UHGV virus genome: UHGV-0335561
DNA: 60,270 nt
Strand: one strand, 5' to 3'
DNA from: a virus
Part shown: positions 8,203 to 55,184 of the stretch, one piece after another
How the letters are laid out: each line of letters starts with the position of its first letter
Position numbering within the stretch: position 1 is the stretch's first letter
The notes under the pieces: model-generated
What the model was told of the DNA's origin: nothing
What the model saw: the letters and a program-made list of their open reading frames with translations, nothing else
The model's database searches: none
Made by a program: the position numbers and the translations under genes

Positions 8203-10756
8203 ACCGGTAGGCGATCTGGTCGTTGATTTGAGTCTGGATGCGGCCAGATTTGACGAGCAGATGGCCAGAGTCAGGCGTCATTTTTCCGGTACGGAAAGTG
8301 ATGCGAAAAAAACAGCGGCAGTCGTTGAACAGTCGCTGAGCCGACAGGCGCTGGCTGCACAGAAAGCGGGGATTTCCGTCGGGCAGTATAAAGCCGCCAT
8401 GCGTATGCTGCCTGCACAGTTCACCGACGTGGCCACGCAGCTTGCAGGCGGGCAAAGTCCGTGGCTGATCCTGCTGCAACAGGGGGGGCAGGTGAAGGAC
8501 TCCTTCGGCGGGATGATCCCCATGTTCAGGGGGCTTGCCGGTGCGATCACCCTGCCGATGGTGGGGGCCACCTCGCTGGCGGTGGCGACCGGTGCGCTGG
8601 CGTATGCCTGGTATCAGGGCAACTCAACCCTGTCCGATTTCAACAAAACGCTGGTCCTTTCCGGCAATCAGGCGGGTCTGACGGCAGATCGTATGCTGGT
8701 CCTGTCCAGAGCCGGGCAGGCGGCAGGGCTGACGTTTAACCAGACCAGCGAGTCACTCAGCGCACTGGTTAAGGCGGGGGTAAGCGGTGAGGCTCAGATT
8801 GCGTCCATCAGCCAGAGTGTGGCGCGTTTCTCCTCTGCATCCGGCGTGGAGGTGGACAAGGTCGCTGAAGCCTTCGGGAAGCTGACCACAGACCCGACGT
8901 CGGGGCTGACGGCGATGGCACGCCAGTTCCATAACGTGACGGCGGAGCAGATTGCGTATGTTGCTCAGTTGCAGCGTTCCGGCGATGAAGCCGGGGCATT
9001 GCAGGCGGCGAACGAGGCCGCAACGAAAGGGTTTGATGACCAGACCCGCCGCCTGAAAGAGAACATGGGCACGCTGGAGACCTGGGCAGACAGGACTGCG
9101 CGGGCATTCAAATCCATGTGGGATGCGGTGCTGGATATTGGTCGTCCTGATACCGCGCAGGAGATGCTGATTAAGGCAGAGGCTGCGTTTAAGAAAGCAG
9201 ACGACATCTGGAATCTGCGCAAGGATGATTATTTTGTTAACGATGAAGCGCGGGCGCGTTACTGGGATGATCGTGAAAAGGCCCGTCTTGCGCTTGAAGC
9301 CGCCCGAAAGAAGGCTGAACAGCAGAGTCAACAGGACAAAAATGCGCAGCAGCAGAGCGATACCGAAGCGTCACGGCTGAAATATACCGAAGAGGCGCAG
9401 AAGGCTTACGAACGGCTGCAGACGCCGCTGGAGAAATATGCCGCCCGTCAGGAAGAACTGAATAAGGCCCTGAAAGACGGAAAAATCCTGCAGGCAGATT
9501 ACAACACGCTGATGGCGGCAGCGAAAAAGGACTATGAAACGACACTGAAAAAGCCGAAGCAGTCCGGCGTGAAGGTGTCTGCGGGCGATCGTCAGGAAGA
9601 CAGTGCTCATGCTGCCCTGCTGACGCTTCAGGCTGAACTCCGGACGCTGGAGAAGCATGCCGGAGCAAATGAGAAAATCAGCCAGCAGCGCCGGGATTTG
9701 TGGAAGGCGGAGAGTCAGTTCGCGGTACTGGAGGAGGCGGCGCAACGTCGCCAGCTGTCTGTACAGGAGAAATCCCTGCTGGCGCATAAAGATGAGACGC
9801 TGGAGTACAAACGCCAGCTGGCTGCACTTGGCGACAAGGTTACGTATCAGGAGCGCCTGAACGCGCTGGCGCAGCAGGCGGATAAATTCGCACAGCAGCA
9901 ACGGGCAAAACGGGCCGCCATTGATGCGAAAAGCCGGGGGCTGACTGACCGGCAGGCAGAACGGGAAGCCACGGAACAGCGCCTGAAGGAACAGTATGGC
10001 GATAATCCGCTGGCGCTGAATAACGTCATGTCAGAGCAGAAAAAGACCTGGGCGGCTGAAGACCAGCTTCGCGGGAACTGGATGGCAGGCCTGAAGTCCG
10101 GCTGGAGTGAGTGGGAAGAGAGCGCCACGGACAGTATGTCGCAGGTAAAAAGTGCAGCCACGCAGACCTTTGATGGTATTGCACAGAATATGGCGGCGAT
10201 GCTGACCGGCAGTGAGCAGAACTGGCGCAGCTTCACCCGTTCCGTGCTGTCCATGATGACAGAAATTCTGCTTAAGCAGGCAATGGTGGGGATTGTCGGG
10301 AGTATCGGCAGCGCCATTGGCGGGGCTGTTGGTGGCGGCGCATCCGCGTCAGGCGGTACAGCCATTCAGGCCGCTGCGGCGAAATTCCATTTTGCAACCG
10401 GAGGATTTACGGGAACCGGCGGCAAATATGAGCCAGCGGGGATTGTTCACCGTGGTGAGTTTGTCTTCACGAAGGAGGCAACCAGCCGGATTGGCGTGGG
10501 GAATCTTTACCGGCTGATGCGCGGCTATGCCACCGGCGGTTATGTCGGTACACCGGGCAGCATGGCAGACAGCCGGTCGCAGGCGTCCGGGACGTTTGAG
10601 CAGAATAACCATGTGGTGATTAACAACGACGGCACGAACGGGCAGATAGGTCCGGCTGCTCTGAAGGCGGTGTATGACATGGCCCGCAAGGGTGCCCGTG
10701 ATGAAATTCAGACACAGATGCGTGATGGTGGCCTGTTCTCCGGAGGTGGACGATGA
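8195..10756 (+). CDS. H: tail tape measure protein H
   Basis: 853 aa, lambda gpH. Confidence 0.97.
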   Translation: MAEPVGDLVVDLSLDAARFDEQMARVRRHFSGTESDAKKTAAVVEQSLSRQALAAQKAGISVGQYKAAMRMLPAQFTDVATQLAGGQSPWLILLQQGGQVKDSFGGMIPMFRGLAGAITLPMVGATSLAVATGALAYAWYQGNSTLSDFNKTLVLSGNQAGLTADRMLVLSRAGQAAGLTFNQTSESLSALVKAGVSGEAQIASISQSVARFSSASGVEVDKVAEAFGKLTTDPTSGLTAMARQFHNVTAEQIAYVAQLQRSGDEAGALQAANEAATKGFDDQTRRLKENMGTLETWADRTARAFKSMWDAVLDIGRPDTAQEMLIKAEAAFKKADDIWNLRKDDYFVNDEARARYWDDREKARLALEAARKKAEQQSQQDKNAQQQSDTEASRLKYTEEAQKAYERLQTPLEKYAARQEELNKALKDGKILQADYNTLMAAAKKDYETTLKKPKQSGVKVSAGDRQEDSAHAALLTLQAELRTLEKHAGANEKISQQRRDLWKAESQFAVLEEAAQRRQLSVQEKSLLAHKDETLEYKRQLAALGDKVTYQERLNALAQQADKFAQQQRAKRAAIDAKSRGLTDRQAEREATEQRLKEQYGDNPLALNNVMSEQKKTWAAEDQLRGNWMAGLKSGWSEWEESATDSMSQVKSAATQTFDGIAQNMAAMLTGSEQNWRSFTRSVLSMMTEILLKQAMVGIVGSIGSAIGGAVGGGASASGGTAIQAAAAKFHFATGGFTGTGGKYEPAGIVHRGEFVFTKEATSRIGVGNLYRLMRGYATGGYVGTPGSMADSRSQASGTFEQNNHVVINNDGTNGQIGPAALKAVYDMARKGARDEIQTQMRDGGLFSGGGR

Positions 10757-44486: not shown

Positions 44487-46238
44487 ATGATTCAGGACGC
44501 TTTTGTGCGCCAGCGTGCGCGGCAACTTTACTGGCAGGGTTATCCGCCCGCAGAAATATCACGTCTGATGGGAATAAACCCGAACACGATTTATGCGTGG
44601 AAAAAACGTGACCAGTGGGATGAAACGCCACCCGTGCAGCGTGTCACGCAGTCCATCGATGCGCGCCTCATCCAGCTTACTGAAAAACAGAATAAAACAG
44701 GCGGTGACTTTAAGGAAATAGACCTGCTGACCCGGCAGCTTAAAAAGCTGCATGATGGCCAGCCGGATGTGATGGCCGCAGGAAAGAAAGGCCGGGCGAA
44801 AAAACTCAAAAATCATTTCACGCCGGAACAGATTGCCGCACTGCGGGAAAAAATCATCAGCAGGCTGGAGTGGCATCAGCGGGGCTGGTTTGACTCCCTG
44901 ACCCTTTGCAGGGAAGCCGGGATACGTAACAGGATGATCCTGAAATCCCGACAGATTGGGGCGACCTGGTATTTTGCACAGGAAGCACTGCTGATGGCGC
45001 TGCGTGACGATGTGGCGCAACCTTACCAGCGTAACCAGATTTTTTTGTCTGCGTCGCGTCGTCAGGCGTTCCAGTTTAAAAGCATTATTCAGAAGGCCGC
45101 GGCTGAAGTTGATGTGGAGCTGAAAGGGGGCGATAAAATCATCCTCTCCAACGGCGCAGAGCTGCATTTTCTCGGCACTTCTGCTGCGTCGGCACAGTCC
45201 TATACGGGCAATTTTTATTTTGATGAATTTTTCTGGGTCAGTCGCTTTGCTGAACTGCGCAAGGTGGCTGGCGCTATGGCAACCCTCAGCGGACTGCGGC
45301 GCACCTACTTCTCCACGCCATCCACCGAAACGCACGAGGCATACGCCTACTGGAACGGCGACCGCTGGAACGAGAAAAAGGCCTCGCATAAACGCCAGCG
45401 TTTTTCTGTGGACTGGAAAACGCTGCATAATGGGCTTATCTGCCCTGACCGGACGTGGCGGCAAATTGTCACGCTGGAAGATGTGGTTAATCACGGCTGG
45501 AAACACACCGATATCGACGAAATTCGTGATGAAAACACCGAAGACGAGTTCCTCAATCTCTATATGTGTGAGTTTGTCCGCGAAGGGGAATCGGCATTTA
45601 ACCTGAATATCCTGATTGGCTGCGGTGTTGACGGATACGACGACTGGAAAGACTGGAAACCTTTTGCTCCCCGCCCGATGGGGAATCGTCCGGTATGGAT
45701 TGGGTATGACGCAAACGGCAGTAGTGGCAACGGCGACAGCGGCGCTGTGTCCGTGGTGGTTCCTCCGGCTGTTCCTGGCGGCCGTTTTCGAACGGTGGAG
45801 ACGCGACGCGTTCAGGGGCTGGAGTTTGAAGAACAGGCCAGAGTCATTGAAGAGTTCACGTGTCGCTACAACGTGGAACACATCGGCATTGATGTGACGG
45901 GCGGGAACGGGGAGGCTGTTTATCAGATAGTGAAGCGGTTTTTCCCTGCTGCTATTCCGTACACCTTCACGCTGTCATCAAAACGGTCGCTGGTACTGAA
46001 AATGCTGCAAATAATGCGTGCCGGGCGGTGGGAATACGATCGCGCCGAACGCGAGCTGGTCGCGGCCTTTAACGCCGTGCGTAAGGTGAAAACACCGGGC
46101 GGCTTTATCACTTACGAAACGGACCGCGCGAGGGGGATCAGCCACGGCGACCTTGCGTGGGCAACCATGCTTGCTGTCATTAACGAACCAATTGGCGGCG
46201 AAGGAGAAAACGAGCGTTTCATGGTTATGGAGTTCTGA
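44487..46238 (+). CDS. P: terminase ATPase (large) subunit (P2 gpP family)
   Basis: 583 aa; Walker A-like KSRQIGAT. Confidence 0.88.
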   Translation: MIQDAFVRQRARQLYWQGYPPAEISRLMGINPNTIYAWKKRDQWDETPPVQRVTQSIDARLIQLTEKQNKTGGDFKEIDLLTRQLKKLHDGQPDVMAAGKKGRAKKLKNHFTPEQIAALREKIISRLEWHQRGWFDSLTLCREAGIRNRMILKSRQIGATWYFAQEALLMALRDDVAQPYQRNQIFLSASRRQAFQFKSIIQKAAAEVDVELKGGDKIILSNGAELHFLGTSAASAQSYTGNFYFDEFFWVSRFAELRKVAGAMATLSGLRRTYFSTPSTETHEAYAYWNGDRWNEKKASHKRQRFSVDWKTLHNGLICPDRTWRQIVTLEDVVNHGWKHTDIDEIRDENTEDEFLNLYMCEFVREGESAFNLNILIGCGVDGYDDWKDWKPFAPRPMGNRPVWIGYDANGSSGNGDSGAVSVVVPPAVPGGRFRTVETRRVQGLEFEEQARVIEEFTCRYNVEHIGIDVTGGNGEAVYQIVKRFFPAAIPYTFTLSSKRSLVLKMLQIMRAGRWEYDRAERELVAAFNAVRKVKTPGGFITYETDRARGISHGDLAWATMLAVINEPIGGEGENERFMVMEF

Positions 46239-47284
46239 TGAGCAGAAAAAATAAAAAAGTGCGCATGAGTTCACGCATTGATCTCGCTGATGCGCTCAGG
46301 AAAGAATCATCGCTCAGTGCATTCACATTTGATGGTCCTTATCGCCTGACCGGGCATGACCTGCTGGACAATATGTACTGTGCTGATAACGGGCGGTGGT
46401 ATGAAACCCCGGTGGACTGGTACGGTCTGGCAAGAGCAGCCCGGCAAACGTCCTGGCATCAGTCTGCGCTTTACTTTAAGCGCAATGTATTACTCGGTTG
46501 CTACATCCCGCACCCGCTGCTTTCCCGGCAGGATTTCTCGGCGCTGGCGCTGGACTGGTTTGTGTTCGGTAACGCATTCCTTGAGCTTCGAAGCAATATG
46601 CTCGGCGAACCGCTTAAATTACGGCACGCCCTGGCGAAATACATGCGACGCGGAAGCGATCTTGAATCATGGTGGTATGTGCAGGATGGCAAGGACGCGT
46701 TTCAGTTTCGTCCTGGCAAAGTGTGCCACCTGATGAATCCGGATATTAACCAGGAAATCTACGGCATGCCGGAATATCTTGGCGCATTACTCTCGGCCAG
46801 CCTTTCTCATTCGGCGGACATGTTCAGAAAACTGTACTACGACAACGGATCCCACGCCGGGTGCATCATCTACATCGGTGCAGCGCAGGTAAACCGCGAA
46901 AGCATGGACTCCCTGAAAGAAACGCTACAGGGGGCACGTGGTGGTGGTGCGTTTAAAAACGTGCTCATTCATGCGCCCAACGGGGGCAAAGAGGGGGTGC
47001 AAATTTTGCCGTTCCAGCAGATCACCGCAAAAGATGAATTCATGAATGTTAAGGCGGCATCCCGTGATGATGTGCTGGCTGCGCACCGCGTTCCGCCGCA
47101 ACTGATGGGGGCGATGCCGGGCGAAAAAAGTGCGTTTGGCGATGTGGAGAAGGCAGCGCGGGTTTACGCAATTAACGAGCTGATGCCCGTTATGGAGGCT
47201 ATGAAGCACATCAATGACTGGCTTGGCGAAGAGGTGATCCGTTTTAACTCTTATGCTCTTCTTGATGAAAAAACAGCCCCGTGA
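46238..47284 (+). CDS. Q: portal protein (P2 gpQ family)
   Basis: 348 aa; start overlaps P stop. Confidence 0.85.
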   Translation: MSRKNKKVRMSSRIDLADALRKESSLSAFTFDGPYRLTGHDLLDNMYCADNGRWYETPVDWYGLARAARQTSWHQSALYFKRNVLLGCYIPHPLLSRQDFSALALDWFVFGNAFLELRSNMLGEPLKLRHALAKYMRRGSDLESWWYVQDGKDAFQFRPGKVCHLMNPDINQEIYGMPEYLGALLSASLSHSADMFRKLYYDNGSHAGCIIYIGAAQVNRESMDSLKETLQGARGGGAFKNVLIHAPNGGKEGVQILPFQQITAKDEFMNVKAASRDDVLAAHRVPPQLMGAMPGEKSAFGDVEKAARVYAINELMPVMEAMKHINDWLGEEVIRFNSYALLDEKTAP

Positions 47285-47300
47285 TGGGGCTGTCCTTTTT
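47268..47300. terminator. bidirectional terminator between convergent Q and the 174-aa gene
   Basis: acagccccgtgatggggctgt hairpin with T run after and A run before. Confidence 0.65.
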
Positions 47301-47823
47301 ACCAGAGTTGAACCATTTTCTGGGTGCCGTCAGGCTTGAGATTATCAATTTCAGAGAGAACGTAATATTGAATGGCTTCACAAACGGTGGTGTAGGGTGA
47401 ATTACCTTCTTTAAGTGGCACGATATTATTATTAACGCGAACCTGTATTTCATCGTTATACATTGCGATCGAAACAGGAGTGTGCACGAACGCGACTTCG
47501 CCAGGTGTGTCGTCAACCACCGTTTCAATACTAAAAGTCAGTTTTCGCTCATCATTGCTGCCCCGTGCTTTGGGGGTAGCGGCAGGGATCTGGGATAAAG
47601 GCATTCTGCGAAATCCTTCGGCTGCTTCCAGTCCGCATGAAACGTAATGCTGGCGATTACCGTCGCTATCTGTCCAGGTCTGTGATGGCAGCTCCAGCGA
47701 GATTTCATAAGCATCAACAATGCCCTGGGCAAGGCGTACAAGCGGGGTCAGATCTTCATTGCGGCGAAAGCTCTCCTTTACCTGCTCCCGTTTTTCTCTT
47801 AACTGCTTGTAATTAATGACCAT
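47299..47823 (-). CDS. hypothetical 174-aa protein at the cos-proximal edge of the cargo locus
   Basis: GGAGG RBS 7 nt upstream of ATG (MVINYKQLREKREQVKESF...); own terminator; no TM; no family recognised. Confidence 0.6.
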   Translation of the reverse strand: MVINYKQLREKREQVKESFRRNEDLTPLVRLAQGIVDAYEISLELPSQTWTDSDGNRQHYVSCGLEAAEGFRRMPLSQIPAATPKARGSNDERKLTFSIETVVDDTPGEVAFVHTPVSIAMYNDEIQVRVNNNIVPLKEGNSPYTTVCEAIQYYVLSEIDNLKPDGTQKMVQLW

Positions 47824-48368
47824 AAGACAGCCTCCATTGATTTCTTTGCTCGTATTTTGCACTTATGAAGTATGGTCGGCAAGGTGCCGTATCGCTGACG
47901 CGCTTCGCTTGTCTGCTGCTTCGCCGGGGCATAAAAAATTTATGCCCCGGCTCTCCAGCTCCTGTATCAATCAGATAATTTCACGACGCCTTCCAGTTTA
48001 TCGCCACCATCGACGGTCAGACTCTTACGCAATTCCACCGCGTTGACTGCATGTTCTCGCTGCCTCAGTGCGATTTTGACGGCCTTACCTTTCACCCCAT
48101 CAAATCAAAAGCCCTCACGCCTTTTTCATGCTCAGCGTGAGAAATATGGCCATTCTGTTGTGTCTCTGCGACATCGTTCAGGGAATGCTATTTACCCCCT
48201 GAAACGCGGGCTGTTCCCCCGTCACCTGCGCGCAGAAAAAGCGCGTTTTTTTGTGCACGCACGGATCCTTGACGGATCCAGCCGCCATGCGGGCCGGAAG
48301 GGTAAAAAGTCGTTCAAAAAAATTGTGCAAATTTGTGCACTTTTGTGCAGGTAAGCATGCCTATATAT

Positions 48369-48397
48369 TTGACCGTGGCTTGCCTTTGATGTAGTTT
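48369..48397 (+). promoter_or_regulatory. putative sigma70 promoter (TTGACC, 17 bp, TAGTTT) preceded by three TTGTGCA repeats at 10-bp spacing
   Basis: aattgtgcaaatttgtgcacttttgtgcag upstream of the -35/-10 pair. Confidence 0.35.
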
Positions 48398-48449
48398 ATA
48401 CGTCACAAAAACCACAAAACGTGGTTATGATTTCTATGAGGGGGTTGAT

Positions 48450-48485
48450 ATGAAAAAAATGTATGATGAATTTGATGGTTTCTAA
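48450..48485 (+). other. leader mini-ORF (11 codons, MKKMYDEFDGF) with strong RBS, just upstream of a terminator
   Basis: GAGGGGG RBS 5 nt upstream of ATG; stop about 20 nt before the hairpin. Confidence 0.35.
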
Positions 48486-48503
48486 GCTACGTTGACCTCT
48501 AAT

Positions 48504-48534
48504 GAGGCGGGGATTTGCTCCCCGCCTTTTTTAT
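48504..48534 (+). terminator. rho-independent terminator/attenuator 13 bp upstream of the first cassette gene
   Basis: gaggcgggga-tttgc-tccccgcc followed by tttttt. Confidence 0.7.
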
Positions 48535-48546
48535 GGATGAAATAGG

Positions 48547-49044
48547 ATGAACCCAATAACACTACAAATCATCAGCAATGCTATTGTTCTGCTTGGCGTT
48601 TTGGTTGCCATTGGAACCATTATCTACAATGTGCGTACCGCAAAAAAAACTCAAACGGCCAACTTTCTTTTTGAGAGTCGGCAAGATATGCAATATATAG
48701 AGTCATTGCATACCCTGAAACAAGTGCATCGTTCAGGCAAATCATTTCGTTCTTATGTTTTTCCTTGTGATGGTTGCATAATAACAGATGAAGAAATGGC
48801 CGAGCGTCGAAAATTTCAATATATTTTAAATTTTTACGAGCGAGTTGCTGTAAGTATTCGTGAAGGTATTTATGATGAAAAAATGATAAAAAGAACATCT
48901 TACACAACAGTTGTAGAGACATATGATATTGCCGAGCCATTAATTAAAGCAATCAGAGAAAGCATTAATTCGGATACTACATATCAAGAATTCGAATGGT
49001 TAGTAAGAAGATGGAAAGCTAATCCTTTACGGAAAAACAAATAA
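48547..49044 (+). CDS. hypothetical membrane-anchored protein (single N-terminal TM plus about 135-aa soluble domain), AT-rich
   Basis: 165 aa MNPITLQIISNAIVLLGVLVAIGTIIYNV...; visibly lower GC than flanks. Confidence 0.7.
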   Translation: MNPITLQIISNAIVLLGVLVAIGTIIYNVRTAKKTQTANFLFESRQDMQYIESLHTLKQVHRSGKSFRSYVFPCDGCIITDEEMAERRKFQYILNFYERVAVSIREGIYDEKMIKRTSYTTVVETYDIAEPLIKAIRESINSDTTYQEFEWLVRRWKANPLRKNK

Positions 49045-49083
49045 TGTTTTACCCTTTAATTTACAAGTAACACAGGGGGAAGT

Positions 49084-49926
49084 GTGACACAGAATCCGTT
49101 TTCATTTTATGACTTTTTGGGCTATCTAATTCCAGGTGGGTTATTCCTGTTTATCCTTTTTTTGTTTTCTATTGAAATTAACCCTGTTTATATAGAAGGT
49201 ATTCTTAACCATATCCTGAAATATAAAGAAATAATAAGTGTATTTATATATGTGGTATTAATCGTTCTATCATATATTTCAGGTCACTTCATATCTATTC
49301 TATCATCCTGTTTAATTGAAAAATACATGAACAGTAAACTTGGGTATCCTTCAATTTATCTGTTTTCTAAAAGAAGCTCCCTGAAAATAAAACGACATAA
49401 TACTAAGTTCAGTATAGTTAATTTTATTCGTGGAGTTTTTTTATTTCCTGTATCAGCTTTTGATAAAGCAGAACATCATAAAACCACACTGCATTCTATA
49501 CTTATTAAAGTCTTTTGGCCGCAAATACGAGATGGTTATATAAATGTTTTTTCTGTATCTACGCTATATCGACGTAAGGGCTTGAGGGGCGATCTTTTTC
49601 GCCTTGCTTATCATTATGTGTATGAACATTCTAAAAATCATCAGGTGAAAATGCAAAACTATGTTGCTTTGTATGGTTTTTGTAGAAACATTACATTTGT
49701 TTTTCTCGCTTCAGTCTGGTTGCTTATGTTCCTGCTCCTTCTATCCTTTTTAATAGATATAAATATCAGACTGTTACCTTTTTGTTTTCTTCTCTTGTTT
49801 TGTATTGCTGCATCCCGAGTATTTTATTATGGTTTTGTTAAGTATTATCGCCGCTATTCTCTTGAGGTTTTAATGGCATTTGCGGTACTTCAGCACGATA
49901 AAAAAACTTCGGCAATTTCATCATGA
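49084..49926 (+). CDS. hypothetical polytopic membrane protein (4-5 predicted TM helices), AT-rich
   Basis: 280 aa; hydrophobic segments at about 10-30, 50-72, 196-222, 224-250; purine-rich RBS region. Confidence 0.7.
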   Translation: MTQNPFSFYDFLGYLIPGGLFLFILFLFSIEINPVYIEGILNHILKYKEIISVFIYVVLIVLSYISGHFISILSSCLIEKYMNSKLGYPSIYLFSKRSSLKIKRHNTKFSIVNFIRGVFLFPVSAFDKAEHHKTTLHSILIKVFWPQIRDGYINVFSVSTLYRRKGLRGDLFRLAYHYVYEHSKNHQVKMQNYVALYGFCRNITFVFLASVWLLMFLLLLSFLIDINIRLLPFCFLLLFCIAASRVFYYGFVKYYRRYSLEVLMAFAVLQHDKKTSAISS

Positions 49927-49942
49927 TTTGAAACATTGGCAC

Positions 49943-49970
49943 CCTGTTAGCAAGGGTGCCAGAATGATGT
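49943..49970. terminator. hairpin between the convergent membrane cassette and parR
   Basis: ggcaccct-gttagca-agggtgcc. Confidence 0.55.
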
Positions 49971-50009
49971 GTTGGTCTGTATTTTATTAGTTCACATACA
50001 ATTATCAGA

Positions 50010-50324
50010 TTATTCTGGGAATAAGGTCTGAATATTCTTTTTTATTTTATAAAAATTGCATTCAACTCCGCTAGGCTGATTATCCTGGTATGTTTCCTTG
50101 ATGCTAACGGTATTGAAGGGGAGGTTGTCCTCTGGCCATTCGGCCATCCAGTAGGCAAATGCTGGGTTGCGCTTTATGAGCGCTAGCCCAGCCAGAAAGG
50201 CCGCGCGTTGCGCGCGGCTGCGTTCGGAGGCTGGCAGGCTATCGAGGTAATTGCACGCCTCCTGTTCACTCTTGACGGCGGCGGGCTTCAGATAGAAACT
50301 TATCCGTCTGGTTGGTGTCGTCAT
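50010..50324 (-). CDS. parR: ParR-like centromere-binding protein (type II partition, ribbon-helix-helix)
   Basis: 104 aa; RRISFYLKPAAVKSEQEACNYLDSLPASERSRAQRAAFLAGLALIKRNP resembles plasmid R1 ParR as I recall it; AAGGAG RBS. Confidence 0.75.
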   Translation of the reverse strand: MTTPTRRISFYLKPAAVKSEQEACNYLDSLPASERSRAQRAAFLAGLALIKRNPAFAYWMAEWPEDNLPFNTVSIKETYQDNQPSGVECNFYKIKKNIQTLFPE

Positions 50325-50328
50325 TGGT

Positions 50329-51288
50329 TTACTCCTTGTCCATTGCGTACAGCCCATTAACCAGAGCAAACTGTGGCACCCCGTCCGCGATGAAAGTCGC
50401 ATTAACTCCGCAGACTTCGCGGATAGCGGGTGCCACAATCTCCGCCCCTCCACCGACAACCATCACCCGCCCGTAACCCGAAAAAACCGCCAGCGCGCGG
50501 ATCACGCGTTGTTTCAGTGTTTCTTCCTTTTCACGAATAACCGCCATCAGGCTGGCGTAATGCGCGTCATTGTGGATGTGCTGGCGCAGCCAGGCTTCAT
50601 CATGGCGATGTTCGATAATGGTATTGGCGATGTGGTGACTGGTGCGCATACCGTTAGTGGCCATCACCGACAGTACGGCATCGGCCATCAGGGAAACGCC
50701 TACGTGTGGATCGCAAAACACCTGGCTGATACCTGCCAGTTGCCCTTGAACCTTTGCCACATCCAGCGTGGTTCCGCCTAAATCCACAATCAGCAGGGAT
50801 TCAAACGGACTCATGTCAGCCAGTGCTTTAAAGCCAGCCGGAATGGATTCAGGCATAACCCGCACGTTACGGATAGTGAATGCTTCGCCGTTCTGGTATT
50901 CCACCGGGCGCATAACGTTCGCTTTTTTGCGGTTGATGTTGGCCATGTCCGGCTGTGCGTTTGTGTCGAAATACTCGCTCAGTGGCAGGGTGACAACCAC
51001 ATCCACCTCCTGTGGCGTGATGCCTGATTTGACCAGCGCGTGATGAATGGCGATTACATTCACATCGCTGTACTGGTATTGCGTGTCGGTCGTCTGGACA
51101 AAGCGATCGCTAACCGGATCAAAACCATAGCGCACGCCATCAAGCATGTAGTTCGCGGGCTGCATGCCACCGAACGGCGCAGACCATTCCGACTTGAAGC
51201 TGTTCGGGCTGATGGCGTTGCGGCGTTCGCCATTCTCAGTCCATGCCAGCTTGATGTTGGTGGAGCCGTCGTCGATACAAATTTTCAT
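50329..51288 (-). CDS. parM: ParM/StbA-family actin-like segregation ATPase
   Basis: 319 aa; MKICIDDGSTNIKLAW...ISPNSFK.EW...YSDVNVIAIHHAL... motifs of R1 ParM. Confidence 0.85.
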   Translation of the reverse strand: MKICIDDGSTNIKLAWTENGERRNAISPNSFKSEWSAPFGGMQPANYMLDGVRYGFDPVSDRFVQTTDTQYQYSDVNVIAIHHALVKSGITPQEVDVVVTLPLSEYFDTNAQPDMANINRKKANVMRPVEYQNGEAFTIRNVRVMPESIPAGFKALADMSPFESLLIVDLGGTTLDVAKVQGQLAGISQVFCDPHVGVSLMADAVLSVMATNGMRTSHHIANTIIEHRHDEAWLRQHIHNDAHYASLMAVIREKEETLKQRVIRALAVFSGYGRVMVVGGGAEIVAPAIREVCGVNATFIADGVPQFALVNGLYAMDKE

Positions 51289-51304: not shown

Positions 51305-51440
51305 TTGATTAATTAATCGTTTACGGGATTCTGAAATCCCGTTTTTGCCTGTTTTGTGCGCGCTTCATATATCGCTGCGCGTTTTTTGCTCATTTACGGG
51401 ATTCGTAAGTCCCGTTTCTGTCTGTTTTTTGTTTCCACTG
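51305..51440. repeat. two direct repeats of about 45 bp, each with an internal palindrome (ACGGGATT...AATCCCGT), upstream of parM; putative parC-like centromere/operator
   Basis: cgtttacgggattctgaaatcccgtttttgcctgtttt and tcatttacgggattcgtaagtcccgtttctgtctgtttt; the second copy overlaps the last codons of A. Confidence 0.55.
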
Positions 51441-54187
51441 GTCAGGCCACCCCGCAGCAGGTCTGCTTTGCGGCTGGCGCGTTCAGTGGTTTCACTGATT
51501 CTCTGTGCGTGCTCTGCGTCGCGGATGGCGCGCAGCATGTCAGAAAGCACGGTAACGGGTGTTTTCATGGTGTTCTGGCCCTGCTGAAGTGTGGATGCCA
51601 GGCGTGCGGCGGCTTCAGGGTCTGATGCCCCCAGCTGTGCCAGATAGCTGGCGACCGGGTTATGGCGGATCTCCGTGCTGCTTACGCCATGATTACGGCT
51701 CAGGCGCTGCCAGAGCTGCGTGATTCGGCTGTCCGGGCGGGTATCCGGTTTGCGTACAATTTCAAATCCCTGCGGTGCAATGATGCTGCCGTCAACGTAC
51801 AGACTGCCGCCCCGTAACAGGTGCTGCATCTGTTGTTCACCGATATGCAGGCCGAGAGATTCAGCAGACTCCCGCCATTCTTTAGCGAGTAATTCGTGGT
51901 TATCAGGCAAAGGCCGCTGCTGTTTGCGGCTCTGTGTCCAGCTCTGCATTTCATCGCTGCTGTTTTTTGCCTGTTTGTCACGAAGCGAACGCATCAGCGC
52001 CCGGCGTTCGTGTCGTTTCAGTGAGCGCATCCATTCGTTCACTTCAACGCCGTCAGGGAGCTGCGGCCACGGTGCTGGCCGTTCTTCCGGCTGTTCTGTC
52101 CCGTTGTTGTCCGTTTCCTGTACACGGGGACAGTTATTGCCACGAGTCCAAGGGGCGGCAGGGCCGCCCTGAAGGTCAAAACCATTTTCGCGGGCGCTGT
52201 CTTCCGCTTCCGGTTTACGTCTTACCAGCTTCCAGTTATCCGGATGCGTGCACACACGGGAGGATTCCCCGATGAGTGGTGACCAGATCCCGTAAATCTG
52301 TACGCTCTGTTCGCCGTAATCGTTCAGCTCATCTGCGAGGTCGTAGGCGGTGCGAATCAGGTAGTCCTTGCGTGGAACAAGCACGCCACCCTGTTTTTCA
52401 ATGTAGGTGGCAAAACACCCGGCATCGGCGGCAGCGAGTACCGCATCCATTGCATCATCTTTCAGCCGTTGCGGGCCTTCCGGATTGCGTGCCATCTGGC
52501 TGGCAAGGCGGCGCAGTTCACGCCACACCTGACGGGAGGGGATGCCAAAGAACTGGAACTGACGGACCCGGTGAAGGCGCGCCCAGCCGATGGCGCGCTC
52601 CACGCTCTCGGCCATTGATTTTCCGGTTTCGTGGTCCACGCGTGGCTTGCCCGTTTTCGGGTCGATGCCATCCACGGCGCGGCTGTCCAGGTTCTTTCCG
52701 ATGTAGGTGGCGATGTAGCTGGTTGGCGTGCCTTTTGAGCCGTCGACATACTCCACCTTAAAGCGCGGAGTAATATCATTGCCCAGCTCGTGGCGGTCTT
52801 CCTGAATGGCAATATCGCGGGTATGGGACACAATGGTGTCGATTTCTTCCGGATGTGCAAAGACCATCATATGCCAGTGCACGGTGCCGTCATGATGAGG
52901 CTCCACCGTGCGGATGCCATACCAGCGCAGGCCGTCGCGGTTCAGTTTTTTGCGGACCGCCGCAAAAAACGTGTTAACCAGGTAATCGCTGGAGTCGCGC
53001 ATTGTGGCCCCGTTCCATTTGGGATTCGGATGACCGTTCTCCGTTGTGGCGTGGTATTTTGACGGGCAGGTGACAGTCAGAAACACCGCTTTGTCGCCAC
53101 GGGCTTCGGCCAGAAGTTCCAGTCCCTTCATGGTGGCCATCATTTCTGCCTTACGGTGAACCGGGTTACTTACTCCCGCGTAATACACTGTCTCGAGATC
53201 AATCGTGAACCCGTCTTCATTTTCCAGCATGAAACTTTTCAGGAAATCGCGTGTTTTCTCGCGCTGTGCGCGAAACTCGCTTAACGCGTCCTGGCTCAGA
53301 TAGGGTGATGTTTTTCTGGAAACCAGACAGGCGGCGCGGAGTTGTTCTTCTCTCCACTCGCAACGTAACAGCCACAGTTTGCGTTTCCACCATTCCGCAC
53401 AGGTCAGGCGAAGGATTGCGCCCGGCAGCAGCTCCGTGTCCGGTTCGTTCCTCCGGTCTTTGTCTGTTGTCAGTGCGTCATAATGTGGAGGCATGGCGTG
53501 CAGGTGTAACGCCATGCGGGCCAGCATCTGATACGCCTTCAGGGTTACATCCATGGTCAGCTCGCCATCGGTCGCGCCAAAGCCATCGCAGAGTTTTTCG
53601 AAGGTGCTGCTGAACATCGCCGCCGTCATGGTGGCCAGCGTCTGTATCTGGTGTTTGTTGAGCTGCGGCAGGTAAAGCAAATCGTCCAGGCGTTCGCGTC
53701 CGGCAAGGGAGCGATAACCCGGTGTCAGCCAGCGTCCGTCAGTGCTATCCAGACGTTCGAATATTTTGCGCAGGGTTCCGCGTGCATAGCGTTCCGCCTG
53801 CCAGCTCTTTTTGCCTTTCCGGCGATCGGCTTCCTGTTTTTTGCGCAGGAAGGAGAGGTGGCGAATAAGCGGATCGCGCAGATAGGACGGCAGCAGGCGC
53901 AGCGAGGCCATGGCTTCATCCACCGCGCCACGTGCCTGTTTTCTGGCGTCTCCTGCCAGTGTGATGGTTTTGTCCTGTTTTTCCTGTGCGTCCAGGCTTT
54001 TATTAATCAGGTTGCCCAGCGGCGTGGCTGAGAACGCCGCATCAGCCATTTCCTGGCGGCGCTCGTTCTCTGCCCGGTAGGCATCCAGCCAGGAGGAAAG
54101 CGCGGATTCAGGAGCGGGGATCCCCGTTCCTTCACGCCCCACTGCGTGGCGCGGTTGTTGCCAGTCCCTGAGGTACTCTGCCGTCAT
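51365..54187 (-). CDS. A: replication initiation endonuclease (P2 gpA-family rolling-circle initiator)
   Basis: 940 aa; P2/186 A-like domains; position in the early operon. Confidence 0.85.
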   Translation of the reverse strand: MTAEYLRDWQQPRHAVGREGTGIPAPESALSSWLDAYRAENERRQEMADAAFSATPLGNLINKSLDAQEKQDKTITLAGDARKQARGAVDEAMASLRLLPSYLRDPLIRHLSFLRKKQEADRRKGKKSWQAERYARGTLRKIFERLDSTDGRWLTPGYRSLAGRERLDDLLYLPQLNKHQIQTLATMTAAMFSSTFEKLCDGFGATDGELTMDVTLKAYQMLARMALHLHAMPPHYDALTTDKDRRNEPDTELLPGAILRLTCAEWWKRKLWLLRCEWREEQLRAACLVSRKTSPYLSQDALSEFRAQREKTRDFLKSFMLENEDGFTIDLETVYYAGVSNPVHRKAEMMATMKGLELLAEARGDKAVFLTVTCPSKYHATTENGHPNPKWNGATMRDSSDYLVNTFFAAVRKKLNRDGLRWYGIRTVEPHHDGTVHWHMMVFAHPEEIDTIVSHTRDIAIQEDRHELGNDITPRFKVEYVDGSKGTPTSYIATYIGKNLDSRAVDGIDPKTGKPRVDHETGKSMAESVERAIGWARLHRVRQFQFFGIPSRQVWRELRRLASQMARNPEGPQRLKDDAMDAVLAAADAGCFATYIEKQGGVLVPRKDYLIRTAYDLADELNDYGEQSVQIYGIWSPLIGESSRVCTHPDNWKLVRRKPEAEDSARENGFDLQGGPAAPWTRGNNCPRVQETDNNGTEQPEERPAPWPQLPDGVEVNEWMRSLKRHERRALMRSLRDKQAKNSSDEMQSWTQSRKQQRPLPDNHELLAKEWRESAESLGLHIGEQQMQHLLRGGSLYVDGSIIAPQGFEIVRKPDTRPDSRITQLWQRLSRNHGVSSTEIRHNPVASYLAQLGASDPEAAARLASTLQQGQNTMKTPVTVLSDMLRAIRDAEHAQRISETTERASRKADLLRGGLTSGNKKQTETGLTNPVNEQKTRSDI

Positions 54188-54862: not shown

Positions 54863-55184
54863 GGTGTGGCCCCTTGTGTAGTAAGTTGTGAAAACTCACC
54901 ATCCAGAGCTGCGAAACTGTGGGTGGCGAGACGTACGAGGTTCGCAGTACCGGCTACACAAGAACCCGGCCCGACCGAAGTCGGCCCCGTACGCCCCGCC
55001 ATAATTCTGACGCGAAAAAAACGTGGCAATACAGTACGCACAAAAAAACCGCTGGCGCGGTTGTGCGCTTGTGTAGTCAGCAGGCTGCGAAACCCGGCAC
55101 CCGTTTTATGAGGTGCAGCGGAAATGTAACCTGACTGATTGCGGCATGGCAAGCGGTTTTTTTGTGTGTGCATGCTCTGGTTTC

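What the first reader, a model, noticed from the sequence alone, without database searches (positions are those of the whole stretch)
48320..49970. AT-rich two-gene membrane-protein cassette in the P2-like portal-to-replication cargo locus: candidate uncharacterised anti-phage (abortive-infection-type) module
The interval between P2-type portal Q (ends 47284) and replication gene A (ends 51365) is where P2 carries old and tin and where P2-like prophages are known to exchange defence cargo. Here it contains a visibly AT-rich block with two co-directional ORFs: 165 aa (one N-terminal TM helix plus a soluble domain) and 280 aa (four to five TM helices). I recognise neither as a phage structural, lysis, replication or named defence protein. 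The block has its own promoter-like element, leader and flanking terminators, so it looks like an autonomous, horizontally acquired unit.
Basis: partly seen in the sequence, partly recalled or inferred. Interest (0 to 1): 0.85.

Follow-up and report, generated by a model that had tools for sequence, protein, structure and literature searches.

The report
Two stacked prophage membrane-protein cargo genes
An AT-rich insert in the cargo hotspot of a P2-like E. coli prophage holds two independently mobile membrane-protein genes, a DUF4760 protein behind a conserved mini-gene and terminator and a relative of the CRISPR accessory protein Csx27; they are plausible but untested phage-exclusion genes that a 2022 catalogue already lists.

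Summary
ORFs 48547-49044 (165 aa) and 49084-49926 (280 aa) lie in a 32-35% GC block between portal Q and replication gene A of a P88-like (Xuanwuvirus) prophage. Cargo breakpoints against relatives are sharp (48349/48350 and 50178/50179).

The cassette is not new. The identical protein pair is "System #3, DUF4760" (1102 occurrences) in Table S5B of Rousset et al. 2022, and is absent from that paper's table of tested systems.

Both genes can now be named. Gene 1 is Pfam DUF4760, a single-pass membrane protein. Its confident model is closest in fold to the EP domains of plant EDS1, PAD4 and SAG101, with no sequence support. Gene 2 belongs to a large 4-TM family that matches the Csx27 profile.

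The pair is not a conserved system. Outside one E. coli lineage each gene always occurs alone. DUF4760 travels with a conserved leader: promoter, 11-codon mini-ORF (…DEFDGF-stop) and intrinsic terminator.

Anti-phage function is plausible from location and neighbours but undemonstrated. The specific abortive-infection two-gene reading is not supported. Interest is moderate.

The parts
48350..50178 (.). Variable cargo segment. It is bounded by backbone shared with phage P88 and phage PhiR44_2; the right breakpoint lies inside the 3' end of parR.
   Evidence: blastn of the window against L002 and L003: homology ends at 48349 and resumes at 50179. The megablast coverage pattern agrees.
48369..48397 (+). 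Conserved promoter-like element of the DUF4760 module: TTGACC, 17 nt, TAGTTT.
   Evidence: It aligns with TTGACT...TAnTTT upstream of DUF4760 genes in more than 10 genera and genomic contexts. The consensus promoter scan did not rank it.
48410..48426 (+). 5' stem-loop of the leader transcript (AACCAC-aaaac-GTGGTT).
   Evidence: Homologous leaders carry a stem-loop at the same place with different sequence.
48450..48485 (+). 11-codon mini-ORF MKKMYDEFDGF-stop, a leader peptide or micro-peptide, preceded by the Shine-Dalgarno sequence GAGGGGG.
   Evidence: It is present in 80 of 89 DUF4760 loci. There are 33 distinct 3' tails with free third-codon positions but conserved [DE]E[FY][DE][GW][FLV]-stop.
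48440..48499 (+). Predicted helix pairing the mini-ORF's Shine-Dalgarno region (48440-48448) with the TTGACCTC box (48492-48499). It encloses a small hairpin at 48476-48489 that has the stop codon in its loop.
   Evidence: MFE folds of three homologues. Pair counts: 82.8% of cells paired against at most 60.6% in slid controls, and covariation 0.257 against at most 0.139. RNAalifold agrees.
48504..48532 (+). Intrinsic terminator (GAGGCGGGGA-loop-CCCCGCC, then T6). It ends 14 nt before the DUF4760 start codon, so DUF4760 mRNA must read through it.
   Evidence: Stems covary across loci, dG is about -14 to -19 kcal/mol, and the stem starts 16-18 nt after the mini-ORF stop.
48547..49044 (+). DUF4760 protein, 165 aa. 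It has an N-terminal TM helix (residues 8-26, predicted N-out/C-in) and an all-helical cytoplasmic domain.
49084..49926 (+). 4-TM inner-membrane protein of a Csx27-profile-matching family, 280 aa. It is predicted N-in/C-in with a K/R-rich cytoplasmic loop at residues 78-195.
   Evidence: PADLOC Csx27 E 1.1e-5 for this protein. 55 of 70 diverse family members hit Csx27 (best 2.2e-10) and 16 hit tm_4. phrog_12528. 1058 representative clusters. Topology.
49937..49961 (.). Stem-loop between the convergent 280-aa gene and parR; probable bidirectional terminator.
   Evidence: Read directly from the sequence; it has no long T-run.

Best explanation
The block is two separately mobile, AT-rich single-gene 'morons' stacked in the cos-proximal Q-A cargo hotspot of a P88-like (Xuanwuvirus) prophage. 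It is not an obligate two-component system. Each gene encodes an inner-membrane protein. The most likely benefit is protection of the lysogen against other phages at the cytoplasmic membrane.

Module 1 (48369-49044) is a self-contained unit: promoter, 11-codon mini-ORF (…DEFDGF-stop), strong intrinsic terminator, then DUF4760. Because the terminator ends 14 nt before the start codon, DUF4760 is made only by read-through. It is therefore kept scarce unless termination is relieved. I infer that the conserved mini-ORF peptide sets or senses this. It could act as a nascent chain on the ribosome, or as a free acidic peptide ending in Phe that binds the protein's helical cytoplasmic domain. I infer that DUF4760 itself is a membrane-tethered sensor/effector.

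Module 2 (49084-49926) is a 4-TM protein of a family that matches the Csx27 profile. Here it sits 39 nt downstream with no terminator between, so it is probably co-transcribed. Elsewhere it stands alone just upstream of xis-int in lambdoid prophages. I infer that it acts at the membrane to exclude or abort superinfecting phage, either by interfering with DNA entry or by altering membrane integrity.

Shown: gene identities, separability of the two genes, cargo turnover, and conservation of the leader. Inferred: anti-phage role, inducibility, and the mechanism of either protein.
For: Separability.
- The pair is found only in 99-100% identical E. coli cassettes: 9 of 60 DUF4760 viral loci and 9 of 76 viral loci of the 280-aa family. 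One further allele is L177.
- Another 20 DUF4760 loci sit alone in P2-like Q-A hotspots of other genera, and 31 sit alone in other phages.
- 18 species-representative genome loci have no 280-aa-family ORF within 6 kb.
- DUF4760 also occurs as an orphan islet between housekeeping genes.
- Nucleotide similarity to the Xenorhabdus module covers window 48439-49044 and ends at the DUF4760 stop codon.
- In L177, gene 1 is about 99% identical (dS 0.04) while gene 2 has diverged (dS 0.28, dN/dS 0.28).

Hotspot and association with defence.
- The Q-A locus is a documented defence hotspot (PMC9122126; PMC13586616).
- Three of eight P2 hotspot candidates were active in Rousset 2022.
- Six of eight randomly chosen unknown P4 hotspot loci protected against phages.
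- Distant homologues of the 280-aa gene lie next to AbiU, a PIN_8 protein and a type II RM system in phage accessory slots.
- About 45 homologues sit immediately upstream of xis-int.
- The homologues inspected are AT-rich relative to their loci.

Leader. The mini-ORF is conserved at the peptide level. The terminator and leader helices covary.

Selection. Both genes are under purifying selection.
Against: - There is no functional data. Apart from the CRISPR-accessory models Csx27 and tm_4, neither protein matches a PADLOC v2 model at a significant level.
- Not all Q-A cargo is defensive. ParMR makes up about a quarter of loci and cdt toxins about 2%.
- Only 15-32% of unknown P2 proteins are predicted antiviral by machine-learning methods.
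- Chromosomal DUF4760 islets are flanked by housekeeping genes, not defence islands.
- No RNA antiterminator is evident. The terminator forms in the MFE with or without a ribosome on the stop codon, so inducibility is an inference.
- The tight 39-nt spacing, the absence of a terminator between the genes and the persistence of the pair in 289 genomes are also compatible with functional cooperation in this lineage.
- The function of Csx27 itself is poorly understood. It repressed Cas13b interference in E. coli (bioRxiv 10.1101/092577).
Confidence: 0.45

Rival explanations
1. Obligate two-component abortive-infection system. DUF4760 senses infection and activates the 4-TM protein as a membrane pore, killing the cell.
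For: - The genes are co-directional, 39 nt apart with no terminator between, and lie in the same AT-rich block.
- The pair is kept in 289 complete E. coli genomes and in a second allele, L177.
- Rousset 2022 lists them together as one system.
- Sensor plus TM-effector designs are known in this hotspot, for example 2TM+1TM+TIR and hydrolase+3TM.
Against: - Co-occurrence is confined to one lineage. It is 0 of 18 genome loci, 0 of 51 other DUF4760 viral loci and 0 of 67 other viral loci of the 280-aa family.
- Each gene is frequent alone in prophage cargo slots.
- The module boundary falls at the DUF4760 stop codon.
- The two genes have discordant divergence in L177.
- Most of the 289 genomes listed appear to be ST131-type clones, so they may not be independent.
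Confidence: 0.15
2. Lysogenic-conversion or fitness genes unrelated to phage defence. These would be membrane proteins that alter the envelope, transport or stress tolerance of the host, for example in the ST131 lineage. The 280-aa protein could be a membrane enzyme rather than a channel.
For: - The 280-aa family has many invariant polar residues (D10, H68, S74, E79, H177, E181, H186, K189, N192, R201, K253, E261), more like an active or binding site than a simple pore.
- From general knowledge, its int-proximal position in lambdoid prophages is also where O-antigen-modifying conversion genes sit in Shigella and Salmonella phages.
- DUF4760 islets lie among housekeeping genes.
- The hotspot also carries non-defence cargo.
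Against: - Receptor or envelope modification by prophages usually itself serves phage exclusion.
- Neighbours of distant homologues are defence genes.
- No match to any enzyme family in Pfam or NCBIfam and none in PDB sequences.
Confidence: 0.2
3. Phage-benefit or counter-defence function. The Csx27-like protein would dampen a host membrane-linked immune effector, as Csx27 dampened Cas13b. Alternatively the genes could tune the prophage's own lysis-lysogeny or DNA traffic.
For: - Csx27 repressed Cas13b interference.
- From my recollection of Makarova et al. 2019, supported by a secondary citation, the Csx27 family is predicted to handle nucleic-acid transit.
- In lambdoid prophages the gene lies at the distal end of the early-left region, in the same direction as int.
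Against: - Anti-defence genes are rare in P2: 28 of 1511 elements.
- The window shows only phage genes around the cassette, so no Cas13b is encoded nearby.
- The AT-rich moron architecture with its own promoter fits genes expressed from the lysogen.
Confidence: 0.1

Closest known systems
Rousset et al. 2022, Table S5B, 'System #3: DUF4760' of the E. coli P2-like Q-A hotspot
   Same: Both protein sequences are identical, the locus is the same, and the '1 TM / 4 TM' note agrees.
   Different: It is a catalogue entry only. The sequences are absent from the tables of tested systems. No family assignment for protein 2, no leader and no co-occurrence analysis are given there.
Csx27, accessory membrane protein of type VI-B1 CRISPR-Cas13b
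   Same: Profile-level homology: 55 of 70 family members hit the PADLOC Csx27 model, best E 2.2e-10. Both have four predicted TM helices.
   Different: No cas13b or CRISPR array is nearby. The protein is about 280 aa against a 206-position model, with a cytoplasmic insert of roughly 100 aa between TM2 and TM3. It is encoded by prophages as a stand-alone moron. Csx27's own mechanism is unknown.
P2 old and tin, and other validated Q-A hotspot cargo (DUF4238, 3HP, DprA+PRTase, 2TM+1TM+TIR)
   Same: Same cos-proximal slot between Q and A. AT-rich, swappable, expressed from own promoters.
   Different: No sequence relationship: there are no PADLOC hits. The 1-TM protein of the AC1 system was not compared with DUF4760. 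Activity is untested.
EP domain of plant EDS1 / PAD4 / SAG101 (receptor for TIR-made ribosylated nucleotides)
   Different: There is no sequence signal: Pfam lists no EDS1_EP at E<=1 and hhalign against verified AtEDS1 349-623 gives probability 0.3%. Foldseek E-values are 0.3-0.6 and TM-scores 0.46-0.56. DUF4760 has no lipase-like domain, is a TM-anchored monomeric protein of 165 aa, and has no TIR partner in cis.
Leader-peptide transcription attenuators (e.g. TnaC/tna, ErmCL, pyrL, MgtL)
   Same: A short translated upstream ORF with a conserved peptide sits immediately before an intrinsic terminator that precedes the regulated gene.
   Different: No alternative antiterminator helix was found. 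The stop codon lies 16-18 nt before the stem, which by typical ribosome footprint sizes (general knowledge) is too far for direct occlusion. The same DEFDGF-stop mini-ORF also occurs before terminators with no downstream gene, so it may be a micro-peptide gene rather than a leader.
Acidic C-terminal tails of single-strand DNA-binding proteins (T7 gp2.5 …ADEDGDF; E. coli SSB …DDDIPF)
   Same: The mini-ORF ends [FY]DEFDGF-COOH: an acidic run ending in Phe, like the gp2.5 tail read here. The SSB tail is quoted from memory.
   Different: This is a resemblance only. It is an 8-13 residue free peptide, not a protein tail, and no binding partner was tested.

Membership tests
Pfam DUF4760 (PF15956) | Full-length match to the family HMM above the gathering score | tested here: met
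   119.3 bits against a cutoff of 25, residues 12-156 on profile positions 2-141 of 141. RefSeq annotation of identical copies agrees.
Csx27 family (type VI-B1 accessory membrane proteins) | Sequence-profile similarity to Csx27 | tested here: met
   The window protein scores E 1.1e-5 over residues 6-244. 55 of 70 diverse relatives match Csx27 (best 2.2e-10) and 16 match tm_4.
Csx27 family (type VI-B1 accessory membrane proteins) | Four transmembrane helices | tested here: met
   Hydropathy peaks at 12-30, 50-68, 206-224 and 230-248. The Phobius note in Table S5B says 4 TM. The AF2 model is too poor to confirm (pLDDT 57.6).
Csx27 family (type VI-B1 accessory membrane proteins) | Genomic association with cas13b and a CRISPR array | tested here: not met
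   The neighbours are portal, ParMR and gpA. Homologues sit in lambdoid prophages next to xis-int. It is therefore a family relative, not a Cas accessory gene.
P2-like Q-A hotspot defence cargo | Located between gpQ and gpA next to cos, and variable among close relatives | tested here: met
   The hotspot is defined in PMC9122126 and PMC13586616.
P2-like Q-A hotspot defence cargo | Match to a known defence system model | tested here: not met
   PADLOC v2.0.0 gives no significant hit other than the CRISPR-accessory models Csx27 and tm_4; PDC-S35 scores E 0.014. DefenseFinder and DefensePredictor were not available.
P2-like Q-A hotspot defence cargo | Measured protection against phages | not testable with these tools
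   The sequences are not among the systems tested in Rousset 2022. No other paper was found.
Conserved two-gene defence system (operon) | Both genes co-occur across diverged homologues | tested here: not met
   They co-occur only in 99-100% identical cassettes plus allele L177. They are absent from 18 genome loci, 51 DUF4760 viral loci and 67 viral loci of the 280-aa family.
EDS1-family EP domain | Same fold | tested here: inconclusive
EDS1-family EP domain | Detectable sequence homology | tested here: not met
   No EDS1_EP hit in Pfam at E<=1. hhalign against verified AtEDS1 349-623 gives probability 0.3%. The profile against PDB sequences gives nothing.
EDS1-family EP domain | Fusion to a lipase-like domain, heterodimer partner, and binding of TIR-derived nucleotides | tested here: not met
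   The protein is 165 aa, a TM helix plus a helical domain only. No TIR or partner is in the cassette. Ligand binding cannot be tested here.
Leader-peptide attenuator | Translated upstream ORF conserved at the peptide level | tested here: met
   80 of 89 loci. Synonymous third positions vary freely (GAT 21/GAC 10, GAA 15/GAG 17, GGT 11/GGC 16) while the amino acids are kept.
Leader-peptide attenuator | Intrinsic terminator between the leader ORF and the gene, structurally conserved | tested here: met
Leader-peptide attenuator | Mutually exclusive antiterminator, or ribosome-dependent relief of termination | tested here: inconclusive
   No alternative helix competes with the terminator in MFE or constrained folds. 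Reporter assays or toeprinting are needed.
Abortive infection / toxin-antitoxin | Toxicity of the effector and cell death on infection | not testable with these tools
   No experimental data are available.

The most novel reading that the evidence does not exclude
DUF4760 would be a membrane-tethered prokaryotic counterpart of the plant EDS1-family EP-domain receptor. Its ligand would be a small acidic molecule, either a nucleotide-derived immune signal or the acidic …DEFDGF-COOH peptide encoded by its own leader. That peptide resembles SSB and gp2.5 C-terminal tails. The module would then be a peptide-gated or SSB-tail-sensing phage-exclusion switch. The DEFDGF mini-ORFs scattered through phage genomes would be a previously undescribed class of regulatory micro-peptides.
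Probability: 0.08. Interest if true: 0.85.

Novelty: new member of a known kind. Interest (0 to 1): 0.5.

Why it matters
This cassette is the third most frequent entry in the published catalogue of the E. coli P2-like hotspot, and 289 of 5426 complete E. coli genomes carry it; most of the strains listed look like ST131-type clinical isolates. It has never been tested.

Treating it as two independent single-gene modules changes how it should be cloned and assayed: each gene alone, with and without the leader.

If active, DUF4760 and the prophage branch of the Csx27-like family would be new single-gene membrane exclusion factors. They would also give a tractable E. coli handle on the still unexplained Csx27 family.

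The conserved mini-ORF plus terminator, and the wider family of DEFDGF-stop mini-ORFs in phage genomes, would be a directly testable case of peptide-dependent control of moron genes.

Tried and rejected
- NCBIfam: no family for either protein.
- Pfam for the 280-aa family: only scattered noise hits.
- PDB sequence searches with both profiles: nothing.
- AF2 model of the 280-aa protein: too poor (pLDDT 57.6, 19-sequence alignment).
- Fold search against AFDB50: library unavailable.
- BFVD viral fold search for DUF4760: uninformative, best hit an unnamed protein at E 5.5e-3.
- Rfam: no family for the leader, only sub-threshold SorX and caiA hits.
- P2 cos 19-mer: absent from the window. The similarity of the terminator's GAGGCGGGGA to the P2 cos core is treated as coincidence, because the same hairpin accompanies DUF4760 outside P2-like phages.
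- A 205-aa one-TM protein near some lambdoid loci of the 280-aa family: tested as a distant DUF4760 relative and rejected (hhalign probability 0.8%).
- A 180-aa ORF preceding a 48%-identical homologue of the 280-aa gene: tested against the DUF4760 profile with no hit; a similar 174-aa neighbour gives weak YfbR-like/HD hits.
- A 174-aa ORF downstream of another MKKKRMNDEFDGF mini-ORF: no Pfam or PHROG match, so it may not be a gene.
- Makarova et al. 2019 on the Csx27 family: could not be read. Statements about it rest on a secondary citation and my memory.
- Literature searches by DUF name, WP accessions, PHROG ids, peptide motif and 'Csx27-like': nothing beyond Rousset's tables.
Full report
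**1. What is there**

ORF listing confirms two co-directional ORFs: 48547-49044 (165 aa, ATG) and 49084-49926 (280 aa, GTG). To the left are large terminase (44487-46238), portal Q (46238-47284) and a 187-aa minus-strand ORF (47299-47862). To the right are ParR (50010-50324, -), ParM (50329-51288, -) and replication protein A (51365-54187, -). Pfam confirms these identities: Phage_portal, Plasmid_stab_B, StbA_N plus ParM, and Phage_GPA.

GC is 0.35 for gene 1 and 0.32 for gene 2. The backbone genes are 0.53-0.58 and the whole window is 0.548.

The region is 100% identical to Escherichia phages vB_EcoM-705R2 and 'Entero_P88' from an O25b:H4-ST131 host. It is about 97% identical in the flanks to phage P88 (Xuanwuvirus, Peduoviridae). 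The cassette is present in 289 of 5426 complete E. coli genomes, always on chromosomes. Most of the strains listed (O25b:H4, JJ1887 and similar) look like ST131-type clinical isolates, so the count may be inflated by clonal sampling; strain types were not checked.

**2. Cargo turnover and boundaries**

Against P88 and PhiR44_2, homology stops at 48349 and resumes at 50179, inside the 3' end of parR.
- P88 carries a ClpX-zinc-finger protein and small ORFs in this slot.
- PhiR44_2 carries five other small ORFs.

The segment 47895-48349 is shared backbone. The 187-aa ORF to its left is a second variable slot: it is present in PhiR44_2 and replaced in P88.

The Q-A interval is the published P2 defence hotspot (PMC9122126; PMC13586616).

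**3. Prior knowledge**

The two proteins, residue for residue, are 'System #3: DUF4760' in Table S5B of Rousset et al. 2022. That entry records 1102 occurrences among 18,150 loci and notes '1 TM in protein 1, 4 TM in protein 2'. Their sequences do not occur in the tables of validated or additionally tested systems. The cassette has therefore been catalogued but not assayed there.

Full-text searches for DUF4760, the WP accessions, the PHROG ids and 'Csx27-like' found nothing further.

**4. Gene 1: DUF4760**

- Family: PF15956, E 1.8e-34; phrog_2284.
- Topology: one N-terminal TM helix (residues 8-26) followed by R/K residues, so predicted N-out/C-in.
- Structure: the AF2 model from 24 homologues is confident (pLDDT 92.7) and all-helical.
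- Foldseek: EDS1 chains also rank first, with probability 0.95-0.98, but E is 0.3-0.6 and TM-score 0.46-0.56.
- Sequence support for this link: none. Pfam shows no EDS1_EP hit. hhalign against AtEDS1 349-623 gives probability 0.3%; I first verified that sequence against PDB 7xdd_B.

I treat the EP-like fold as a lead, not as family membership.

**5. Gene 2: Csx27-like 4-TM protein**

- It has no Pfam family. It matches phrog_12528.
- A profile search of 1.84 billion representatives finds 1058 clusters at E<=1e-3 and 234 at E<=1e-30. Most are 270-300 aa.
- The window protein hits the PADLOC Csx27 model at E 1.1e-5.
- Of 70 diverse relatives, 55 hit Csx27 (best 2.2e-10) and 16 hit tm_4, another type VI-B-associated membrane model. 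No Pfam family recurs among them.
- Hydropathy gives four TM helices. The loop at residues 78-195 has 20 K/R against 6 D/E, so it is predicted cytoplasmic, with N-in/C-in topology.
- Many polar residues are invariant across the family: D10, H68, S74, E79, H177, E181, H186, K189, N192, R201, K253 and E261. This pattern suggests a binding or catalytic site.
- Its AF2 model is unreliable (pLDDT 57.6).

Csx27 is reported to repress Cas13b interference. It is predicted to form a nucleic-acid channel (Makarova 2019, via and my recollection; the paper itself could not be read).

**6. The two genes are not a conserved pair**

| Data set | Loci | With both genes | Notes |
|---|---|---|---|
| DUF4760 loci, species-representative genomes | 18 | 0 | no 280-aa-family ORF within 6 kb |
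| DUF4760 loci, viral contigs | 60 | 9 | all 9 are 99-100% identical E. coli copies; 20 others sit alone in P2-like Q-A hotspots (76-90% identity) and 31 alone in other phages |
| 280-aa-family loci, viral contigs | 76 | 9 | only the 9 near-identical ones have DUF4760 |

Other contexts for each gene:
- Homologues of the 280-aa protein (about 45% identity) stand alone immediately upstream of xis-int in lambdoid prophages of E. coli, Salmonella, Enterobacter and Citrobacter.
- More distant homologues lie next to AbiU, a PIN_8 protein or a type II RM system.
- DUF4760 also occurs as a single-gene islet between housekeeping genes in Rahnella, Enterobacter soli and Entomohabitans, and in unrelated Klebsiella prophages.

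Further signs of independence:
- Nucleotide similarity between the window and the Xenorhabdus P2-like module spans 48439-49044 and stops at the DUF4760 stop codon.
- In metagenomic locus L177, DUF4760 is about 99% identical (dS 0.04, dN/dS 0.07). The 280-aa gene is only 87% identical (dS 0.28, dN/dS 0.28).

Both genes are under purifying selection but have separate histories. This argues for two stacked single-gene modules. In this lineage they are probably co-transcribed, because the gap is 39 nt and there is no terminator between them.

**7. The leader**

Every DUF4760 gene examined carries the same upstream unit, whatever its genomic context:
- a TTGACT-type -35 box (window 48369-48374) and a TAnTTT -10 box (48392-48397);
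- a 5' stem-loop;
- a strong Shine-Dalgarno sequence;
- a mini-ORF of 10-13 codons (window 48450-48485, MKKMYDEFDGF);
- an ACCTC box;
- an intrinsic terminator (48504-48528 plus T6);
- then, 14 nt later, the DUF4760 start codon.

Conservation of the mini-ORF: 80 of 89 loci have it, ending [DE]E[FY][DE][GW][FLV]-stop. Among 33 distinct sequences the third codon positions vary freely while the amino acids are kept. The ORF is therefore translated and selected as a peptide.

Conservation of structure: the terminator stem covaries and starts 16-18 nt after the stop codon. A helix between the Shine-Dalgarno region and the ACCTC box, and a small hairpin with the stop codon in its loop, are supported. 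Paired cells are 82.8% against at most 60.6% in slid controls, and the covariation score is 0.257 against at most 0.139.

What remains open: no competing antiterminator appears in the folds. How read-through is achieved or regulated is unresolved.

**8. A wider mini-ORF class (side observation)**

Of the 118 I analysed, only 34 precede DUF4760.

The other 61 unique contexts are mostly 8-31-codon ORFs: MKDEFDGF, MYDEFDGF, MKKKRMNDEFDGF, and doubled forms such as MLDEFEGFDEFDGF. About half are followed within 50 nt by a strong hairpin (32 of 61 at dG<=-12, against 23% of random controls). Some lie at operon ends with no downstream gene. Others lie in large-phage contigs ahead of genes that look like a T4-type primase and an SbcD-type nuclease; I recognised these by eye and did not test them.

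The motif resembles the acidic tail of T7 gp2.5, …ADEDGDF. No paper containing the motif was found.

**9. Interpretation**

The placement in a defence hotspot is correct and already published.

The evidence best fits two separately mobile membrane-protein morons. Their most likely role is phage exclusion for the lysogen. The prior comes from this hotspot: 3 of 8 P2 candidates were active, 6 of 8 unknown P4 loci were active, and 15-32% of unknown P2 proteins are predicted antiviral. Defence-gene neighbours of distant homologues of the 280-aa gene add to it.

An abortive-infection mechanism, a sensor-effector relationship between the two proteins, and inducibility of DUF4760 are all inferences.

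Rivals that remain open:
- a lineage-specific cooperative pair;
- a non-defence conversion function;
- a phage-benefit or counter-defence function.

**10. Verdict**

The feature is real and correctly located. It is already catalogued, still functionally untested, and better described as two modules than as one system.

New here:
- assignment of gene 2 to a family matching the Csx27 profile;
- the EP-like fold lead for DUF4760;
- the demonstration that the pair is not conserved;
- the conserved DEFDGF leader.

Interest is moderate.

Noticed in passing
window 48450-48485; loci L180-L296: Short ORFs ending …DEFDGF-stop are widespread in viral contigs. Typical forms are MKDEFDGF, MYDEFDGF, MKKKRMNDEFDGF and doubled DEFEGF-DEFDGF. 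About half are followed by a strong hairpin. Some occur in large-phage contigs ahead of genes that look like a primase and an SbcD-type nuclease. No literature was found. This may be an undescribed class of leader peptides or micro-peptides.
   Followed up: partly
L298 (T7 9158-9856): The T7 gp2.5 single-strand-binding protein ends …ADEDGDF. This acidic tail ending in Phe resembles the mini-ORF's …YDEFDGF. From general knowledge, P2's own hotspot gene tin targets the T4 single-strand-binding protein. This is a resemblance only.
   Followed up: partly
window 47299-47862 (-): A 187-aa ORF (annotated as 174 aa; phrog_5091, no Pfam or PADLOC hit) sits between the portal and the conserved backbone segment. 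It is present in PhiR44_2 but replaced by other small ORFs in P88. It marks a second cargo slot in this phage group.
   Followed up: partly
window 48325-48350: Three TTGTGCA repeats lie at the right edge of the conserved backbone segment. Similar repeats occur at the same place in P2-like prophages of Xenorhabdus, Kluyvera and Dryocola, but not at chromosomal DUF4760 islets. They are candidate packaging or terminase sites, or an operator. The canonical P2 cos 19-mer is absent from the window.
   Followed up: partly
window 54919-55116 (-): Rfam finds a C4 antisense RNA (83 bits) and an adjacent isrK RNA (65 bits) just beyond gpA. From general knowledge, the C4 antisense RNA belongs to the P1/P7 immunity system, so this suggests such an element inside a P2-like prophage.
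   Followed up: no
window 50010-51288 (-): A ParM/ParR (StbA/Plasmid_stab_B) partition cassette lies next to the cargo. The 3' end of parR (50010-50178) differs between otherwise near-identical phages, so the recombination breakpoint falls inside the gene.
   Followed up: partly
L291 and L270: Two viral contigs carry the MKKM[HY]DEFDGF leader without a DUF4760 gene after it. In L291 the ORF that follows is a 372-aa protein that looks like a transposase. This is apparently a disrupted or re-used leader.
   Followed up: no
L159 5179-6879 and L160 5939-7282: Two related phage contigs carry a homologue of the 280-aa gene beside different partners at the same slot: AbiU in one and a PIN_8 protein in the other. 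This is an example of defence-gene swapping next to a constant membrane gene.
   Followed up: partly
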